From Podarcis cretensis (lineage: Eukaryota), in NCBI GenBank assembly GCA_951804945.1, contig OX638164.1, positions 12,338,001 through 12,402,000 on the forward strand: a stretch of 64,000 nucleotides of DNA. The letters are read 5' to 3'. Below, one piece after another: positions 13,365-42,642 of the stretch. How positions within the stretch are numbered: the first letter of the stretch is position 1; every line of letters begins with the position of its first letter. The translations under genes and the position numbers were made by a program. Below the pieces are notes generated by a model, which saw only the letters and a list, made by a program, of their open reading frames with translations, searched no databases and was not told the DNA's origin.

Positions 13365-14044
13365 CAGGGACAGATCTATGAAACTAATGAAGCTTAAGTT
13401 TCAGGGGCCCCAATTCTGGAGGAGCCCCAGAAGTGACTTTAGTCCGTATTGCTTAAAATTTTGGGGTCTGGTAGATGCGGGTGGCACTGTGGGTTAAACC
13501 ACAGAGCCTAGGGCTTGCTGATCAGAAGGTCGGTGGTTCGAATCCCTGCAATGGGGTAAGCTCCCATTGCTCAGTCCCTGCTCCTGCCAGTTAGAAAGCA
13601 CGCAGTGCAAGTTGATAAATAGGTACTGCTCCGGCGGGAAGGTAAACGGCATTTCCGTGCACTGCTCTGGTTCGCCAGAAGCAGCTTAGTCATGCTGGCC
13701 ACATGACCCGGAAGCTGTACGCCAGCTCCCTCGGCCAGTAAAGTGAGATGAGCGCCACAACCCCTGAGTCGTCCGCGACTGGACCTAATGGTCAGGGGTC
13801 CCTTTACCCTTTAGACCAGTTTGAGTCACATTACTCAAATTGATTGATTTTTTTGTTGTATATACTTCAACAATTCCAAAGTTTTGAGAGTCCGTAGCAC
13901 AAATGTTATAAAGGTATTGTGATCTGCTGTGGAACAACCCCATTGAAGAAGATTACATTAGCTACCCAGACCTTGCTACTGGTTGCAAAGGGGCCCACAT
14001 GAGAGTCCAAGCTTCAGGGCCCCCAAAATGTACGTCTGCCACTG
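13365..14044. mobile_element. Degenerate hAT element hosting a Sauria SINE
   Basis: Imperfect TIR CAGGGACAGA/CAGTGGCAGA. TSD GTGGCATA/GTGGCATG (7/8). Confidence 0.65.
13473..13813 (+). mobile_element. Sauria SINE
   Basis: tRNA-like head with A box and B box GGTTCGAATCC. 3' CCTTTACC tail. Colinear with 35717-36077. Confidence 0.9.
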
Positions 14045-17764: not shown

Positions 17765-18439
17765 GACTATGGCCCCAAAGTGAATTTCAAGAAGCGCAAG
17801 TTGAAAGCAGGCGGTTTTGCTGGCTTGCCCAGCTTCAGCCAGGAGATTGTGACTCGAATGAGAAGCCATTCTGTGCTCAAGGACTTCTCTCCAGTCGAGC
17901 AGTGCAACTTGGATTATGGCCCCGAGAGAGGGGCTGCTATTGACCCCCATTGGGATGACTGGTGGCTTTGGGGGGAACGCCTGGTTAGCTTAAACTTGCT
18001 TTCAGCAACTGTGCTCTCCATGTCTTGCGACTCAGAGGATCATATCCAGTTATTTCCAGCCTTTCTTCAAGAAAGCAAGCAGGTACACAGCTCTTTGACC
18101 CATGCTGTTTCTCAGGAGCATTGGCCTAAAGAGTCTACTTCTTCAGGAGGATTCAGAAGCACCACAAAGTGGGGAACTGACCCTTCTTCCCCCACCAGGT
18201 CAGTTTTGTCTAAAGAGGTTGTCGTCGCCATTCACTTACCTCAGAGATCACTAGTGGTTCTGTATGGACCGGCTCGCTATAGATGGAAACATGCCATTTA
18301 TCGCCATCATATTAAAAGCCGCCGTATCTGCATCACCTTCAGAGAATTGTCTGCAGAGTTCAGTCTTGGAGGACAACAGGAAGAATTGGGTCAAAAGCTC
18401 CTAAAAACAGCTCTGACATACCAGGGAATACCTGTATAG
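17765..18439 (+). CDS. ALKBH4: ALKBH4 exon 3, Fe(II)/2-oxoglutarate dioxygenase domain to stop
   Basis: DYGPKVNF, EQCNLDY, HxD (IDPHWDD), distal His (WKHAI) and RRICITFR. cctatag acceptor, TAG stop. Total 338 aa. Confidence 0.97.
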   Translation, partial: DYGPKVNFKKRKLKAGGFAGLPSFSQEIVTRMRSHSVLKDFSPVEQCNLDYGPERGAAIDPHWDDWWLWGERLVSLNLLSATVLSMSCDSEDHIQLFPAFLQESKQVHSSLTHAVSQEHWPKESTSSGGFRSTTKWGTDPSSPTRSVLSKEVVVAIHLPQRSLVVLYGPARYRWKHAIYRHHIKSRRICITFRELSAEFSLGGQQEELGQKLLKTALTYQGIPV

Positions 18440-19754: not shown

Positions 19755-20117
19755 GGTAAAGGTAAAGGTACCCCTGCCCGTACGGGCCAGTCTTGACAGA
19801 CTCTGGGGTTGTGCGCCCATCTCACTTAAGAGGCCAGGGGCCAGCGCTGTCCGGAGACACTTCCGGGTCACGTGGCCAGCGTGACAAAGCTGCATCTGGC
19901 GAGCCAGAGCCGCACACGGAAACGCTGTTTACCTTCCCGCCGGTAAGCGGTCCCTATTTATCTACTTGCACCCGGAGGTGCTTTCGAACTGCTAGGTTGG
20001 CAGGCGCTGGGACCGAGCAGCGGGAGCGCACCCCGCCGCAGGGATTCGAACCGCCGACCTTTCGATCGGCAAGTCCTAGGCGCTGAGGCTTTAACCCACA
20101 GCGCCACCTGCGTCCCC
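19755..20117 (-). mobile_element. Sauria SINE (different subfamily)
   Basis: Head GGGACGCAGGTGGCGCTGTGGGTTAAA, B box, (ACCTTT)n tail. 12-bp TSD ACCATATATATA at 19743-19754 and 20118-20129. Confidence 0.9.
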
Positions 20118-26026: not shown

Positions 26027-26572
26027 TCACACAACCTGCAGCCCCCGGTCGTGCCCATCCAGCTGCACTTTCAGTTTGTGGAGCTCTTCAATCTCCCGGT
26101 TGTGGCGCTCGGTTTTGTGGCGGACGAGGGAGCGGTAGAAATGGATGGTGAAGACGACAAAGATGATCCCCACCGGGACCATGATGATGGTGGAGATGAG
26201 AGCTGCCTGCCACCCTGTATGCTGGCTGGTCTTCTGGACAATGGCAGTGCCGTTTCTCAGCACGGAGTCCACGGGCAGGAACTTGATCCAGCACAGGAGG
26301 ACGACCTCGGCGAGGAAGAGGAGGATGCCCAGGACAGTGGAAAAGCCCCAGGCCAGCTCAATGTAGGGGTGCATGCGCTCGTGGGGGGACTCGCTGATAG
26401 AGTTCAGGTTGTGGATGTTGCTCACGGCTTCCACGTTGGGGAGGATGCAAGTGCTGATGAGCAGGGCGAAGAGGTGGACAGCCACAAGGATGGTAGTGCA
26501 GGCACTGAAGGCAATCAGCAACATCGGGGGGTACTGGTACTGCATCTCCAGCTGGACCTCCACCATCGCCAC
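26027..26572 (-). CDS. ORAI2: ORAI2 terminal coding exon (end of TM1 to C-terminus)
   Basis: VAMVEVQL selectivity-filter Glu, [17 protein letters not shown], and the ORAI2-type tail [20 protein letters not shown]. ttttcag acceptor, TGA stop. Confidence 0.98.
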
Positions 26573-26587
26573 CTGAAAAGCAACATC

Positions 26588-27174
26588 CGTCAGTGTTTGC
26601 TTGCCTCTACAAAACCCAGGAGAGAGTCGGCAGTAAATCACACCAGTCAAGTTGCTCCTTAATAGCAAGAACACAATTAGCACAGACTGGGCAGAGCGTT
26701 AGGCTTGATGAGCATGGCAGCTCATCCCTGGTAGGTCTTGCCTCATGAATCAGTTGCTGAGACTGATAATCCCTCCAAGCAATTGGAGACTGTGCCTGCA
26801 TGCAGCCAACCTCTCCTCCACCCTTTTCATGCCTCTTCTGGTTCTGGGATAGAAGTGGGGAGGGCAGCTTGTCACAGCAGGAGAGGGAGAAACCTGTGAT
26901 TCGTCGCCAGCCTGACTCATCTCTGCCTCTTGGCCTCCCTCCTCTCCTGTTTCAACTTCTGCCTCTGATTCTGGACATCTCTTTGCCACGGACTCTCCCA
27001 GCTCACTAGGTCCTGTTACCCCTTCAGCTTCCGACACCGCCTCTTCCCAGTCTTCTTCCTCCGACCACACATTGTTGCCCCACCACCAATTCCTGGACTC
27101 TGAGGTTTCTTCCCTTGGGGGGTTCCCCAGCTGGTTCCTCCCACTATTCCTTTGCATCCAACCAGTCTGTGACA
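26588..27174 (-). mobile_element. Probable solo LTR (Gypsy-like) in the last ORAI2 intron
   Basis: Begins TGTCACAGACTGG and ends ...CACTGACG (TGTCA/TGACA-like termini). Purine-rich body I recall as a lacertid LTR repeat. No clean TSD. Confidence 0.5.
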
Positions 27175-35716: not shown

Positions 35717-36077
35717 GGGACATGGGTGTTGCTGTGGGTTAAACCACAGAGCCTAGGACTTGCCGATCATAAGGTCGGCAGTTCAAATCCCCGCGACGGG
35801 GTGAGCTCCTGTTGCTACCCCGGTCCCTGCTCCTGCCAACCTAGCAGTTCGAAAGCACGTCAAAGTGCAAGTAGATAAATAGGTACCACTCCGGCGGGAA
35901 GGTAAACGGCGTTTCCGTGCGCTGCTCTGGTTCGCCAGAAGCGGCTTAGTCATGCTGGCCACATGAGCCGGAAGCTGTACGCTGGATTCCTTGGCCAATA
36001 AACTGAGATGAGCGCTGCAACCCCAGAGTCGGCCACGACTGGACCTAATGGTCAGGGGTCCCTTTACCTTATAACTT
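35717..36077 (+). mobile_element. Sauria SINE inserted in a CR1 3' fragment
   Basis: Full-length body. 14-bp TSD TAATGCTTCTGAAT at 35703-35716 and 36078-36091. Confidence 0.92.
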
Positions 36078-36951: not shown

Positions 36952-37833
36952 ACAAGCTCCTTCAAGGCAACAACCTGCCTATTTTTGTCTACAAAATTCC
37001 ATAAGGCAACCTGTAGCCCTCCAGATGCTGTTGCACTCCAGCTCCCATCAGCTCCTGCCAAAAGTCAAGGTTACAGTGAGCTGTACACTCATGATGTATA
37101 CTGATGCCCTGGGGAAGAGCACTAACAACATAATGAAGACTTACAAAATTATATAGGAAGAAACAAACAGGTCTCTGCCCCCAAGGAGTTTACAATCTTA
37201 GGGTGGTACTCAGTGCTAGCTCTTCGTCAGAGTAGACTCACTGAAGTCATCATGGACATGACTAAGTTAGGACCATTACTTTCTATAGGTCTACTCTGAG
37301 GTGGACTTAGTTGACTACAACCCTTGTAGTGCAAAATGTGCATTTACTCAGAGGTAAGTCCCCACAGTGTCTGGGTGGGGGCTTGGCGATACAAGCACCC
37401 GCATCACATGCAGAAGGTATCGGGTTCAAAAACTGCCATCTCCAGATAATTCTGGGAGACTCCTGCCTAAAAACTGCATCTAACAGGCAATATGGAATTA
37501 TTGTCCTTAACCGTAGGGTTTCTAGACATTTAATTACGTATTAATAACACAACATTATATCCACATTATTTACTATGCATCATTTCACACTGCATTGCAC
37601 TGTATGGATATGCTGCACATAGAATACACACATGCTGTTAAGATTTGGTTGGCGAGGTTTGTCACTAGTCCAATCCCTGCCCTGACTCTCCTCTCCTGAC
37701 TCTTCTGTCAACAAACAAGATCTTAGGTATTGAGAGCCCTTTTAAAAAAACGCCACTAATGAATCGGGGAGAAGTGACACACGTCCCACGCCATGACAGA
37801 TCCTATTCCACAAACGTGCAATATGGTGGAGCC

Positions 37834-38089: not shown

Positions 38090-38350
38090 CGCAAGGCGTC
38101 TCCCCGAAGTCCAGCCCTCCTGCCGACTTACCCCACAGGCAGCAGCAGCAGCAGCAGCAGGAGGAGCAGCACCGCCGCCCCAGCCCCACTAACGCCGCCT
38201 TCGCCGCTGCCAAGGCAACGCCAGGGTCCCGCCACGTGACCGCTCTGGAGTAGTGAGCACGTGACCAAGCCTCTTCTCTCCCTGCTACCCCTCAGACAGG
38301 TCTCGATTCCCGGCAGGCGAGAGGAGTCAGGAACGAGCGCGTGTTGCAAG
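38090..38350 (-). promoter_or_regulatory. ORAI2: Probable ORAI2 promoter and non-coding first exon (donor at 38131)
   Basis: Small GC-rich island. Donor GGG|GTAAGT, (CTG)7 in the exon, and two GGTCACGTG E-boxes (CACGTG at 38233-38238 and 38258-38263). Confidence 0.65.
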
Positions 38351-38462
38351 AAGGGGTTTCATGTTTTTCGTTTTTCATTAAAGAGATAAACATATATACT
38401 CTCTGTGTGTATACATATACAGCGAGAGAGAGATACATATACATACACATACACATACACAT

Positions 38463-41400
38463 GTTGTTGTTGTTTAGTCGTTTAGTCGTGTCCGACTCTT
38501 CGTGACCCCATGGACCAGAGAACGCCAGGCACTCCTGTCCTCCACTGCCCCCCGCAGCTTGGTCAGACTCATGCTGGTAACCTCGAAAACACTATCCAAC
38601 CATCTCGTCCTCTGTCGCCCCCTTCTCCTTGTGCCCTCCATCTTTCCCAACATCAGGGTCTTTTCCAGGGAGTCTTCTCTTCTCATGAGGTGGCCAAAGT
38701 ACTGGAGCCTCAGCTTCACAATCTGTCCTTCCAGTGAGCACTCAGGGCTGATTTCCTTCAGAATGGAGAGGTTTGATCTTCTTGCAGTCCATGGGACTCT
38801 CAAGAGTCTCCTCCAGCACCATAATTCAAAAGCATCAATTCTTCGGCGATCAGCCTTCTTTATGGTCCAGCTCTCGCTTCCATACATCACTACTGGGAAA
38901 ACCATAGCTTTAACTATACGGACCTTTGTTGGCAAGGTGATGTCTCTACTTCTCAAGATGCTGTCTAGGCCTGTCATTGCCCTTCTCCCAAGAAGCAGGC
39001 GTCTTTTAATTTCGTGGCTGCTGTCACCATCTGCAGTGATCATGGAGCCCAAGAAAGTAAAATCTCTCACTGCCTCCATTTCTTCCCCTTCTATTTGCCA
39101 GGAGGTGATGGGACCAGTAGCCATGATCTTCGTTTTTTTGATGTTGAGCTTCAGACCATATTTTGCACTCTCCTCTTTCACCCTCAATAAAAGGTTCTTT
39201 AATTCCTCCTCACTTTCTGCCATCAAGGTTGTGTCATCTGCATATCTGAGGTTGTTGATATTTCTTCCGGCAATCTTAATTCCGGCTAGGGATTCATCCA
39301 GCCCAGCCTTTCGCATGATGAATTCTGCATATAAGTTAAATAAGCAGGGAGACAAAATGCAGCCTTGTCGTACTCCTTTCCCAATTTTGAACCAATCAGT
39401 TGTTCCATATCCAGTTCTAACTGTAGCTTCTTGTCCCACATAGAGATTTCTCAGGAGACAGATGAGGTGATCAGGCACTCCCATTTCTTTAAGAACTTGC
39501 CATAGTTTGCCATGGTCGACACAGTCAAAGGCTTTTGCATAGTCAATGAAGCAGAAGTAAATGTCTTTCTGGAACTCTCTAGCTTTCTCCATAATCCAGC
39601 GCATGTTTGCAATTTGGTCTCTGGTTCCTCTGCCTCTTCTAAATCCAGCTTGCACTTCTGGGAGTTCTCGGTCCACATACTGCTTGAGCCTTCCTTGTAG
39701 AATTTTAAGCATAACCTTGCTAGCGTGAGAAATTAGTGCAATTGTGCGATAGTTGGAGCATTCTTTGGCACTGCCCTTCTTTGGGATTGGGATGTAGACT
39801 GATCTTCTCCAATCTTCTGGCCACTGCTGAGTTTTCCAAACTTGCTGGCATATTGAGTGTAGCACCTTAACAGCATCATCTTTTAAAATTTTAAATAGTT
39901 CAGCTGGAATACCATCACTTCCACTGGCCTTGTTATTTGCAGTGCTTTCTAAGGCCCATTTAACTTCACTCTCCAGGATGTCTGGCTCAAGGTCAGCAAC
40001 CACACTACCTGGGGTATATGAGACATCCGTTTCTTTCTGGTATAATTCCTCTGTGTATTCTTGCCACCTCTTCTTGATGTCTTCTGCTTCTGTTAGGTCC
40101 TTTCCACTTTTGTCCTTTATTATGGAAATCTTTGTACGAAATGTTCCTTTCATATCTCCAATTTTCTTGAACAGATCTCTGGTTCTTCCCATTCTATTGC
40201 TTTCCTCTATTTCTTTGCATTGCTTGTTTAAGAAGGTCTTCTTGTCTCTCCTTGCTATTCTTTGGAAATCTGCATTCAATTTCCTGTACGTTTCACGATC
40301 TCCCTTGCATTTTGCTTGCCTTCTCTCCCCCGCTATTTGTAAGGCCTCATTGGACAGCCACTTTGCTTTCTTGCATTTCCTTTTCATTGGGATGGTTTTC
40401 GTTGCTGCCTCCTGTATAATGTTACGAGCCTCCATCCATAGTTCTTCAGGCACTCTGTCCACCAAATCTAAATCCTTAAACCTGTTCCTCACTTCCACTG
40501 TGTATTCATAAGGGATTTGACTTAGATTGTATCTTACCGGCCCAGTGGTTTTTCCTACTTTCTTCAGTTTAAGCTTGAATTTTGCTATAAGAAGCTGATG
40601 ATCTGAGCCACAGTCAGCTCCAGGTCTTGTTTTTGCTGACTGTATAGAGCTTCTCCATCTTTGGCTGCAGAGAATATAATCAATCTGATTTCGATGCTGC
40701 CCATCTGGTGATGTCCATGTGTAGAGTCGTCTCTTGTGTTGTTGGAAAAGCGTGTTTGTGATGACCAGCTTGTTCTCTTGACAGAACTCTATTAGCCTTT
40801 GCCCTGCTTCGTTTTGATCTCCAAGGCCAAACTTGCCAGTTGTTCCTTTTATCTCTTGACTCCCTACTTTAGCATTCCAATCCCCTATAATGAGAAGAAC
40901 ATCCTTCTTTGGTGTCACTTCTATAAGGTGTTGTAAGTCTTCATAGAATTGGTCAATTTCAGTTTCTTCAGCACCAGTAGTTGGTGCATAAACTTGGATT
41001 ACTGTGATGTTAAAAGGTCTGCCTTGGATTCGTATCGAGATCATTCTATCATTTTTGAGATTGCATCCCAGTACAGCTTTTGCCACTCTTTTGTTGACTA
41101 TGAGGGCCACTCCATTTCTTTTACGGGTTTCTTGCCCACAGTAGTAGATATGATGGTCATCCGAACTGAATTCACCCATTCCCGTCCATTTTAGTTCACT
41201 GATGCCCAGGATGTCAATATTTATTCTTGCCATCTCATTTTTGACCACCTCCAACTTACCCATGTTCATGGTTCTTACATTCCAGGTTCCTATGCAATAT
41301 TTTTCTTTACAGCATTGGACTTTCCTTTCGCTTCATGGATCACTGCCTTGCCGTGGCGAAGGGGCTTGAAGAACTCAGAGAAGCTATGAACTATGCCGAG

Positions 41401-41520
41401 CAGGGCACCCAAGATGAACAGGTCATAGTGGAGAGTTTTGACCAAACGTGATCCACCTGGAGGAGGAACCGGCAAGCCACTCCAGTATCCCTGCCAAGAA
41501 AACTCCATGGACAAAGACAA
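38463..41520 (-). mobile_element. BovB (RTE clade) LINE, near full length, with inverted 5' segment (41334-41520)
   Basis: APE endonuclease plus RT ORF. 3' end ...CTAAACGACTAAA(CAA)n. 22-nt direct repeat at 38441-38462 and 41522-41543. 5'-UTR-like sequence in the opposite orientation. Confidence 0.95.
38474..41269 (-). CDS. BovB ORF: AP-endonuclease plus reverse transcriptase (931 aa, N-terminally truncated)
   Basis: EN motifs LGISE, QVYAPT, GDWNAK, NQIDY, SDH. RT motifs NYRTIAL, QAGFR, FIDYAKAFD, GVRQGCILSP, YADD, FLG. No stops or frameshifts. Confidence 0.95.
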   Translation of the reverse strand: MNMGKLEVVKNEMARINIDILGISELKWTGMGEFSSDDHHIYYCGQETRKRNGVALIVNKRVAKAVLGCNLKNDRMISIRIQGRPFNITVIQVYAPTTGAEETEIDQFYEDLQHLIEVTPKKDVLLIIGDWNAKVGSQEIKGTTGKFGLGDQNEAGQRLIEFCQENKLVITNTLFQQHKRRLYTWTSPDGQHRNQIDYILCSQRWRSSIQSAKTRPGADCGSDHQLLIAKFKLKLKKVGKTTGPVRYNLSQIPYEYTVEVRNRFKDLDLVDRVPEELWMEARNIIQEAATKTIPMKRKCKKAKWLSNEALQIAGERRQAKCKGDRETYRKLNADFQRIARRDKKTFLNKQCKEIEESNRMGRTRDLFKKIGDMKGTFRTKISIIKDKSGKDLTEAEDIKKRWQEYTEELYQKETDVSYTPGSVVADLEPDILESEVKWALESTANNKASGSDGIPAELFKILKDDAVKVLHSICQQVWKTQQWPEDWRRSVYIPIPKKGSAKECSNYRTIALISHASKVMLKILQGRLKQYVDRELPEVQAGFRRGRGTRDQIANMRWIMEKAREFQKDIYFCFIDYAKAFDCVDHGKLWQVLKEMGVPDHLICLLRNLYVGQEATVRTGYGTTDWFKIGKGVRQGCILSPCLFNLYAEFIMRKAGLDESLAGIKIAGRNINNLRYADDTTLMAESEEELKNLLLRVKEESAKYGLKLNIKKTKIMATGPITSWQIEGEEMEAVRDFTFLGSMITADGDSSHEIKRRLLLGRRAMTGLDSILRSRDITLPTKVRIVKAMVFPVVMYGSESWTIKKADRRRIDAFELWCWRRLLRVPWTARRSNLSILKEISPECSLEGQIVKLRLQYFGHLMRREDSLEKTLMLGKMEGTRRRGRQRTRWLDSVFEVTSMSLTKLRGAVEDRSAWRSLVHGVTKSRTRLND

Positions 41521-41561
41521 CACATACACATACACATACACATATACATATACATATACAT

Positions 41562-42274
41562 GTTGTTTAGTCGTTTAGTCGTGTCCGACTCTTCGTGACC
41601 CCCTGGACCAGAGCACGCCAGGCACTCCTGTCTTCCACTGCCTCCCGCAGTTTGGTCAAACTCATGCTGGTAGCTTCGAGAACACTGTCCAACCATCTCG
41701 TCCTCTGTTGTCCCCTTCTCCTTGTGCCCTCCATCTTTCCCAGCATCAGGGTCTTTTCCAGGGAGTCTTCTCTTCTCATGAGGTGGCCAAAGTATTGGAG
41801 CCTCAGCTTCAGGATCTGTCCTTCCAGTGAGCACTCAGGGCTGATTTCCTTAAGAATGGATTGTTTTGATCTTCTTGCAGTCCATGGGACTCTCAAGAGT
41901 CTCCTCCAGCACCATAATTCAAAAGCATCAATTCTTTGGCGATCAGCCTTCTTTATGGTCCAGCTCTCACTGTTGCACTCCAGCTCCCATATGGGAAAAC
42001 CATAGCTTTAACTATATGGACCTTTGTCGGCAAGGTGATGTCTCTGCTTTTTAAGATGCTGTCTAGGTTTGTCATAGCTTTCTTCCCAAGAAGCAGGCGT
42101 CTTTTAATTTCGTGACTGCTGTCACCATCTGCAGTGATCATGGAGCCCAAGAAAGTAAAATCTCTCACTGCCTCCATTTCTTCCCCTTCTATTTGCCAGG
42201 AGGTGATGTGACCAGCTCTCCTCTTTCACCCTCATTAAAAGGTTCTTTAATTCCTCCTCACTTTCTGCCATCAA
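41562..42274 (-). mobile_element. Second, 5'-truncated and degenerate BovB copy
   Basis: Colinear with the 3' end of the first copy. 50-nt deletion at 42215/42216 and a replaced patch at 41972-41991. Confidence 0.95.
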
Positions 42275-42642
42275 CTCTGTGTGTATACATATACAGCGAG
42301 ACAGAGATACATACACATATACAGCAAGAGATACATATACATATACATATATACATACAGTATATGAGGGATTCTATCTATCTTGCTGGAGGGATTTCAC
42401 ACACCTCCCTAAATGTGCTTGGAAACAAGCCTAAGTCTTCTGGTGGCAGCTCTTTCACATCAAGAGCCATGTGCTCTCCTCCTGCCAGCTTCCTAGATGA
42501 CAGGCAGTGCCTCTGAGCATACAGAGAGGGCTCCTCCTGCTCCCCCCAATTGTTAAAATCAGCGCTCAGAGCAGTTGGAGCGTCAGACCAATAGCTCTCA
42601 AAATTATGGCGGCGGCAGTTATTTATTGATTGTTTTCCGAAA

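What the first reader, a model, noticed from the sequence alone, without database searches (positions are those of the whole stretch)
41270..41543. BovB LINE with an inverted 5' end: twin-priming geometry in an RTE-clade element
Seen: the BovB body runs on the minus strand up to ~41333 (frame ...SERKVQCCKEKYCIGTWNVRT-MNMGK). 41334-41520 reads on the PLUS strand CATGGATCACTGCCTTGCCGTGGCGAAGGGGCTTG...CCACTCCAGTATCCCTGCCAAGAAAACTCCATGG. From memory this is the BovB 5' UTR in sense orientation, so it is inverted relative to the body, and the segment encoding the ORF N-terminus is missing at the junction. Both parts lie inside one 22-nt direct repeat (38441-38462 / 41522-41543). Established: flank, antisense 5' piece, deletion, sense 3' piece, tail within one TSD is the twin-priming product described for mammalian L1. 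Inference: BovB can also twin-prime. I do not recall this being well documented for RTE elements.
Basis: partly seen in the sequence, partly recalled or inferred. Interest (0 to 1): 0.75.

Follow-up and report, generated by a model that had tools for sequence, protein, structure and literature searches.

The report
Lizard BovB retrotransposon with flipped front
This lizard jumping gene carries its front 191 bases flipped back to front, and the same kind of join recurs at other copies in public sequencing data, likely because the element copies its RNA from both cut DNA ends at once, a trick described mainly for mammalian L1.

Summary
Confirmed, with sharper edges. A young lacertid BovB (952-aa stop-free frame, 96% to a Podarcis muralis protein) lies on the minus strand, 38463-41334. 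Its 5' end, 41331-41521 (5' UTR plus codons 1-5), lies on the plus strand. 157 nt are missing, and the parts share a 4-nt microhomology. The 22-nt TSD is real but sits in a 6-nt-period microsatellite, so it is weak evidence; no listed read or contig spans this copy's junctions. New: reads laid on the locus show the same join, a BovB body ending at a variable point fused to the exact 5' terminus, in 7 of the 15 joints shown (of 990), across four runs. Random nesting predicts about 11 reads, and these rows alone hold 29. The flipped piece is predicted to hold an HDV-like ribozyme that would fix the 5' end (no Rfam hit; descriptor relaxed after a miss). Best reading: twin priming (0.7); the main rival is R2-type cDNA snap-back. 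Seven literature searches listed no report for RTE elements, though key papers were not readable. This scan earlier noted an RTE 5' inversion in another genome (e1-7812926).

The parts
38441..38462 (.). 22-nt direct repeat, tail-side copy of the putative TSD, inside an (ACATAC)n microsatellite
   Evidence: period 6, so the length is ambiguous
38463..38476 (-). 3' end with (CAA)n tail, ending in CAAC next to the first A of the TSD
   Evidence: Bov-B_PMu tail is (CAA)2-6 in Table 4 of PMC13295347
38474..41334 (-). BovB body, sense part: stop-free APE endonuclease + reverse transcriptase frame (952 aa) lacking its first 58 codons
41331..41334 (.). Inversion junction: 4-nt microhomology CTTC shared by the body and the 5' terminus
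   Evidence: loose ends
41331..41521 (+). Inverted 5' piece: 5' terminus (minus its first three C), 5' UTR and codons 1-5
41331..41454 (+). Predicted HDV-like ribozyme: P1 3' strand 41358-41364 (5' strand partly lost at the junction), P2 41337-41343 with 41448-41454, P3 41345-41347 with 41355-41357, candidate catalytic C at 41442 or 41443
   Evidence: descriptor fit (relaxed after one search missed); P2 covaries with ruminant loci; no Rfam ribozyme hit
41507..41521 (+). ORF start MDKDN; the piece ends in CAAC next to the first A of the TSD, like the 3' tail
41522..41543 (.). 22-nt direct repeat, upstream copy of the putative TSD
41561..42282 (-). Separate, older 5'-truncated BovB in the same microsatellite (87% to the first copy, gaps included); context, not part of the inverted element

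Best explanation
This is a BovB LINE copy whose first 191 nt are inverted and joined through a 4-nt overlap to a body lacking the next 157 nt, likely made in one insertion by twin priming. Inferred steps: (1) the endonuclease nicks one strand and the RT primes at the CAAC|A of the RNA tail; (2) before that cDNA is finished, the second target strand is nicked and its 3' end primes at an internal CAAC|A just after the start codon, which mimics the tail; (3) the second cDNA runs to the RNA's fixed 5' end, predicted to be set by an HDV-like ribozyme, and so ends in GAAG plus up to three G; (4) the two cDNA 3' ends anneal at CTTC/GAAG and host repair fills in. The same junction type recurs across the family, so this is likely a regular side route of lacertid BovB and not a one-off.
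For: Shown: orientation and identity of both parts; 157-nt gap; 4-nt overlap (background 2.6%). Both outer ends stop at CAAC|A (CAACA occurs at 7 of 2852 body positions; noticed post hoc). The TSD starts with A after T, as for Bov-B. Recurrence: 7 of the 15 joints shown (of 990) run from the body (38755, 38831, 38868, 38881, 38924, 38941, 38951) to 41331 on the window's strand, an eighth goes to 41452, and none of the 15 changes strand. All 7 appear in X15 and X23, 4 in X18 and 4 in X1 (4 runs, 3 studies). In X23 they hold 29 reads, against about 11 (upper bound 18) expected in total from random nesting; single junctions hold 9, 8 and 5 reads where one locus gives about 0.9; 5 of 7 have 2 or more nt of overlap (background 0.23, P 0.009). 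All 7 body ends lie within 650 nt of the tail, as 79% of copies do (uniform: P 3e-5), and cluster near the plain-truncation hot spots at 38947-38969. In X23 the 5' piece is read 2.0-2.8 times deeper than the body next to it.
Against: No listed read or contig spans this copy's junctions, and no empty site was seen. The TSD is in a microsatellite, lacks the T-run about 10 nt upstream that Bov-B targets usually show, and at 22 nt is longer than the 10-12-nt RTE peak cited in PMC4245944. The exact overlap at the flank junction is only 1 nt. 2 of 7 joints have no overlap. The rows shown are the best supported, which favours overlap hot spots, and 975 joints were not shown. Short reads show only the junction, not the length of the inverted piece or a TSD, in the other copies. 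Coverage figures assume a 1511-Mb genome for the coded species. Among the first ~400 characters of the >3-kb P. muralis records with a TSD, three reverse-complement motifs found nothing (low power, since those copies were chosen as collinear).
Confidence: 0.7

Rival explanations
1. Snap-back: a full-length first cDNA folds back, its 3' end primes at an internal CTTC, and it makes the second strand; the loop is then cut, trimmed by 157 nt and joined to the flank. This gives the same final sequence from one priming event.
For: It explains why joints hit the exact 5' terminus. Snap-back after full-length cDNA synthesis is reported for R2 proteins in human cells (PMC11371274, passages). The loop here would be short, about 350 nt.
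Against: The 7 other breakpoints lie 2.6-2.9 kb from the 5' end and follow the normal truncation profile. A nuclease cut would not be expected to land on a tail-like CAAC|A. Snap-back without loop opening would not double the depth of the 5' piece.
Confidence: 0.13
2. Two insertions or two RNAs: the plus-strand piece arrived separately (nested head-to-head insertion, a short non-autonomous derivative, or a second RNP priming the other nick).
For: The microsatellite already holds a second BovB. The piece ends in a tail-like CAAC. Bipartite RTE derivatives are common (PMC5786205, passages).
Against: The CAAC is the element's own internal sequence, followed by AGG in intact copies, so the piece has no tail and no TSD of its own. 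Random nesting falls short in read count, multiplicity, orientation and overlap. A two-RNA form of twin priming cannot be told apart here.
Confidence: 0.08
3. Post-insertion rearrangement: a full-length copy later lost 157 nt and had its front inverted by break repair.
For: Repair also leaves microhomology; the neighbouring copy carries an internal deletion.
Against: It needs a break exactly at the element-TSD boundary with the repeat left whole, and it does not explain many different body ends joined to one terminus.
Confidence: 0.05
4. Assembly or library artefact.
For: This copy's junctions were not seen in the listed reads; high-copy repeats can be mis-joined.
Against: No gap nearby. The junction is not a fold-back palindrome. 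Sister junctions stand in contigs at about 0.6 to 4 times the depth of the unique flank in X18 and X1 and in raw reads of X23, and genomic DNA fragments have no special end at the element's 5' terminus.
Confidence: 0.04

Closest known systems
Twin-primed, 5'-inverted mammalian L1 insertions (Ostertag and Kazazian 2001, seen only as described in PMC2912911, PMC4245944 and PMC10191854, passages)
   Same: Flank, antisense 5' part, deletion, sense 3' part and tail in one direct repeat; microhomology at the inversion junction.
   Different: RTE clade, squamate host, (CAA)n tail. The inverted part reaches the exact 5' terminus in 7 of the 8 shown joints that involve it, and body ends can lie under 300 nt from the tail. 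PMC4245944 found 5' inversions only with L1 in human cells, apart from one Nimb-2_DR insert.
Bov-B of Podarcis muralis (Bov-B_PMu, PMC13295347)
   Same: 5' end, start region, tail type and first TSD letter match; 96% protein identity to P0001.
   Different: The paper's main text has 0 occurrences of 'invers', 'invert' or 'ribozyme'.
R2 cDNA snap-back junctions in PRINT (PMC11371274)
   Same: The full-length cDNA end joined to antisense element sequence at the 5' junction.
   Different: There the antisense piece is added upstream of a full-length insert; here the front itself is inverted and 157 nt are lost.
Bipartite non-autonomous RTEs and SINEs (Bov-A, RTESINE, AfroSINE; PMC5786205, PMC4844689)
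   Same: 5' end retained together with a 3' part, middle lost.
   Different: Those are described as internal deletions; here the two parts are opposed and the ORF body is almost whole.
HDV-like ribozymes at the 5' ends of RTE, R2 and L1Tc elements (PMC6765202, PMC5786205)
   Same: Nested double-pseudoknot pattern starting at the element's first base.
   Different: Not listed for BovB in searches; no Rfam hit; activity untested; the original RTE survey (PMC3308841) was not held.

Membership tests
BovB (RTE clade LINE) | Single ORF with APE endonuclease and RT | tested here: met
BovB (RTE clade LINE) | Sequence identity to described lacertid Bov-B, including 5' end and (CAA)n tail | tested here: met
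BovB (RTE clade LINE) | Tn-TA target signature: TSD starts with A after T | tested here: met
BovB (RTE clade LINE) | Tn-TA target signature: T-run about 10 nt upstream | tested here: not met
   the signature is a trend (265 of 353 in P. muralis)
Twin-primed 5'-inverted insertion | 5' part antisense, 3' part sense with tail; 5'-most base at the inversion junction | tested here: met
Twin-primed 5'-inverted insertion | Parts come from non-overlapping stretches of one element | tested here: met
   157-nt gap
Twin-primed 5'-inverted insertion | Microhomology at the inversion junction | tested here: met
   4 nt
Twin-primed 5'-inverted insertion | Microhomology between flank primer and internal RNA site | tested here: inconclusive
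   1 nt exact; CATA recurs two letters further on
Twin-primed 5'-inverted insertion | One TSD encloses both parts | tested here: inconclusive
   exact 22-nt repeat, but period-6 microsatellite
Twin-primed 5'-inverted insertion | Reads span the junctions; empty allele matches one TSD copy | tested here: inconclusive
   junction repeats skipped, 24 of 188,409 pieces listed
Twin-primed 5'-inverted insertion | Two cDNAs primed on one RNA | not testable with these tools
   needs a retrotransposition assay
HDV-like ribozyme | P1, P2, P3, P1.1 and a C-N-A J4/2 in nested double-pseudoknot order (descriptor written from recalled knowledge) | tested here: inconclusive
   first descriptor missed; relaxed one fits, is the only strict hit in the window on both strands (11 relaxed hits), 0 of 3000 shuffles; tuned post hoc
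HDV-like ribozyme | Covariation | tested here: inconclusive
   one compensatory change in P2; 7 of 9 ruminant loci pair 8 of 8, but they are one lineage and lack the P3/P1 3' strands
HDV-like ribozyme | Element 5' end coincides with the first base of P1 | tested here: met
HDV-like ribozyme | Match to an Rfam ribozyme model | tested here: not met
   7 weak matches, none a ribozyme
HDV-like ribozyme | Self-cleavage in vitro | not testable with these tools
   bench assay
Bipartite non-autonomous RTE | 5' and 3' parts collinear | tested here: not met
   opposite strands

The most novel reading that the evidence does not exclude
Lacertid BovB has a built-in second-priming route: the ribozyme-bearing 5' module is held at the second nick, primed at a tail-like CAAC|A beside the start codon, and capped upside-down onto stalled first-strand cDNAs. 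Such copies would account for the roughly twofold excess of 5' ends, on the order of a thousand per genome, about as many as the near-full-length copies. The RTE 5' UTR would then act in closing the 5' junction, which could explain why RTE derivatives keep both ends.
Probability: 0.3. Interest if true: 0.8.

Novelty: new variant of a known kind. Interest (0 to 1): 0.62.

Why it matters
5' inversion is treated as a near-exclusive trait of L1 in mammalian cells and is read as a sign that the second strand is cut before the first cDNA is finished (PMC4245944, PMC2912911). A recurrent version in a reptile RTE element makes the timing of the second nick, and the role of the RTE 5' UTR, testable from existing lizard assemblies. 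How non-LTR elements join their 5' ends is an open question. It also bears on RTE-based gene-insertion tools that use cognate 5' and 3' UTRs (PMC13708176), where such junctions would be a by-product to look for, and on annotation, since these copies would be split into two hits.

Tried and rejected
No whole genome is held, so no direct census. Viral contigs gave no BovB locus by protein or by 5' UTR pattern. Prokaryote genome contigs gave 41 loci, many of them ruminant-type BovB contamination, with no lacertid-like 5' end. Rfam gave no ribozyme, and plain folding of the piece was unremarkable (z -0.19; pseudoknots are not modelled). The first HDV descriptor missed the piece because it forbade a mismatch at the top of P2. 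MAFFT misaligned the ribozyme region against ruminant loci, so pairs were counted by motif. Reverse-complement 5' motifs were absent from the truncated supplement text. The rest of contig L009 could not be fetched. L024 (fold-back overlap), L022 (tail-first nesting) and L005 have opposite-strand hits but not twin-priming geometry. The piece as a SINE with its own tail was rejected, because its end is internal sequence. Look-ups of earlier findings by sequence and by place gave nothing. PMC3308841 and PMC2727863 were not held.

Full report
What is there. The minus strand holds a stop-free 952-aa frame, 38474-41332, with endonuclease and RT domains. Its best relative is a Podarcis muralis protein at 96% over the whole length, with Zootoca vivipara proteins at 92-93%, so the host is taken to be a lacertid lizard (inference). 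The 3' end is a (CAA)n tail at 38463, the type listed for P. muralis Bov-B. Intact relatives P0075, P0096 and P0015 begin MDKDN and reach SERKV at residue 59. The window's plus strand reads MDKDN at 41507-41521, so the plus-strand piece carries the start codon in the opposite orientation, and 157 nt are missing between the parts. The piece matches the first ~190 nt of P. muralis Bov-B copies, which begin CCCCTTCATGG and continue AGG CAT after the piece's end (supplement of PMC13295347). In 12 contigs found with a body motif, 11 hit the piece, all on the body's strand. The inversion is therefore real in this assembly.

Junctions. Four runs from three studies were laid on 38250-41620. Loose ends before 41331 are unrelated flank plus CCC (agreement 0.41-0.44; 1108 reads in X23), which marks the element's 5' terminus. 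Loose ends behind 41334 are the normal ORF continuation (agreement 0.83-0.95; 809 reads). So 41331-41334, CTTC, belongs to both parts; 2.6% of body positions would give an overlap of 4 or more. At the flank side only one letter is shared for certain, but both outer ends of the insertion stop at CAAC|A, the tail and an internal look-alike (7 such sites in 2852 body positions; noticed after the fact). The 22-nt direct repeat is exact but has perfect period 6, so it shows that the block sits inside one array and does not fix the TSD length. It starts with A after T, as Bov-B TSDs do, but lacks the upstream T-run. The tool skipped both microsatellite junctions, and none of the 24 pieces it listed spans 41331, so this copy's junctions rest on the assembly alone.

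Recurrence. The joints table shows 15 of 990 joints. Seven run from the body (38755, 38831, 38868, 38881, 38924, 38941, 38951) to 41331 on the window's own strand, one runs from 38865 to 41452, and seven are deletions within the body; none changes strand. A second table (12 rows shown, 551 more not) adds five more starting places joined to 41331, often with C or CCC between, but does not give their strand. All seven rows appear in X15 and X23, four in X18 and four in X1. I tested random head-to-head nesting with the X23 numbers: BovB body makes up 1.2% of the letters read, giving about 11 expected reads over all positions (18 at most), while the seven rows alone hold 29. Three junctions hold 9, 8 and 5 reads where one locus gives about 0.9 (coverage 1.26, assuming the 1511-Mb P. 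muralis genome size for a coded species), so they arose or were copied several times. Five of the seven have 2 or more nt of overlap with the C-rich terminus (background 0.23, P 0.009), judged on the window's letters; the rows are the best supported, which favours such sites. All seven body ends lie within 650 nt of the tail, as do 79% of all copies, and several sit beside the plain-truncation hot spots at 38947-38969. In X23 the 5' piece is read 2.0-2.8 times deeper than the adjacent body; summed contig depths show 1.5-2.4 but are no copy number. The excess could be short inverted fronts or collinear bipartite copies. No strand-changing joint or high-agreement loose end of that kind is among those shown, but a breakpoint in the skipped repeat would be hidden. 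One ruminant-type contig, L009, has the same opposed join with a long sense piece and a 1-nt overlap (1 of 31 loci with hits); a mis-join of collapsed repeats is not excluded.

The flipped piece. Its first ~125 nt fit an HDV-like double pseudoknot whose P1 begins at the element's first base. My first descriptor missed it. After allowing one mismatch at the top of P2 it fits, is the only site in the window on both strands with seven Watson-Crick pairs in P2 (11 sites under the loose rule), and 0 of 3000 shuffles fit. P2 shows a compensatory change in ruminant BovB, which pairs 8 of 8 in 7 of 9 loci but has lost the P3 and P1 3' strands. Rfam gave no ribozyme. The descriptor comes from recalled knowledge and was tuned post hoc, so this is a prediction. 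Ribozymes at RTE 5' ends are known as a class (PMC6765202; PMC5786205).

Mechanism. Shown: the anatomy, the overlap and the recurrence of the junction type. Inferred: first priming at the tail; a second nick before the first cDNA is finished; second priming at the internal CAAC|A; copying to a fixed 5' end; annealing of the two cDNA ends; repair. The chief rival is snap-back of a full-length cDNA, reported for R2 proteins (PMC11371274), followed by opening of the loop. It gives the same product for this copy, and short reads cannot tell the two apart at the junction. The position of the other body ends, the tail-like internal end and the depth excess favour two cDNAs.

Literature seen. Passages only: PMC6007223, PMC4245944, PMC2912911, PMC6765202, PMC13708176, PMC5389967 (37, a reference only), PMC4476161, PMC5786205, PMC4844689, PMC11371274, PMC10191854. 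PMC13295347: passages, section 3.2 and three searches of its supplement, whose long records were cut at about 400 characters, so the cut part may hold relevant copies. PMC4245944 found 5' inversions only with L1 in human cells, apart from one Nimb-2_DR insert. Searches listed no report of 5' inversion in RTE or BovB, and searches 28, 46 and 70 none of a BovB ribozyme; most listed papers were seen as listings only. Ostertag and Kazazian 2001 and Ichiyanagi and Okada 2008 were not read, and two ids were not held, so prior mention cannot be excluded. An unchecked note of this scan reports RTE 5' inversions in another genome (e1-7812926).

Verdict. A known mechanism in a clade and host where it is not documented in what I could search, with family-level support and a possible twist: junctions fixed at a predicted ribozyme end. 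New variant of a known kind; interest 0.62.

Noticed in passing
window 41561-42282: Older 5'-truncated BovB in the same microsatellite, same strand, with a 50-nt internal deletion and a long imperfect direct repeat (38401-38462 against 42275-42336, 85%); the inverted copy sits inside the tail-side copy of that repeat.
   Followed up: partly
window 41970-41990 and 37028-37048: A 21-nt patch in the older BovB differs from the first copy and is identical to a stretch 4.9 kb away; possibly a templated patch.
   Followed up: no
window 38936 to 41331 (joint in run X15): A joint with 13 letters between, of which the first 10 copy the nearby 5' UTR, followed by CCC: a templated insertion at the junction.
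   Followed up: no
window 38947-38969: Hot spots of plain 5' truncation in three of four runs (841 and 768 reads in X23), about 490 nt from the tail.
   Followed up: partly
L009:1-140: Ruminant-type BovB contig with reverse body sequence joined to the 5' region with a 1-nt overlap, the same opposed geometry with a long sense piece; single metagenome contig.
   Followed up: partly
L001-L004, L007, L009-L012, upstream of the ORF: Ruminant BovB keeps the predicted P2 helix but lacks about 20 nt holding the P3 and P1 3' strands, as if the ribozyme had decayed.
   Followed up: partly
L013-L026: Contigs of bacterial species genomes that consist of ruminant-type BovB (64-86% protein identity): host or reagent contamination of the assemblies.
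   Followed up: no
window 26027-26698 (-) and 17765-18439 (+): Coding exons of host genes: Orai family (Pfam E 9e-51) and a 2OG-Fe(II) oxygenase-like frame below the curated cut-off.
   Followed up: partly
window 13474-13811, 19758-20116, 35717-36070: Three copies of a ~350-nt repeat at 77-85%; the last ends in an ACCTTT-like tail, as listed for Sauria SINE.
   Followed up: no
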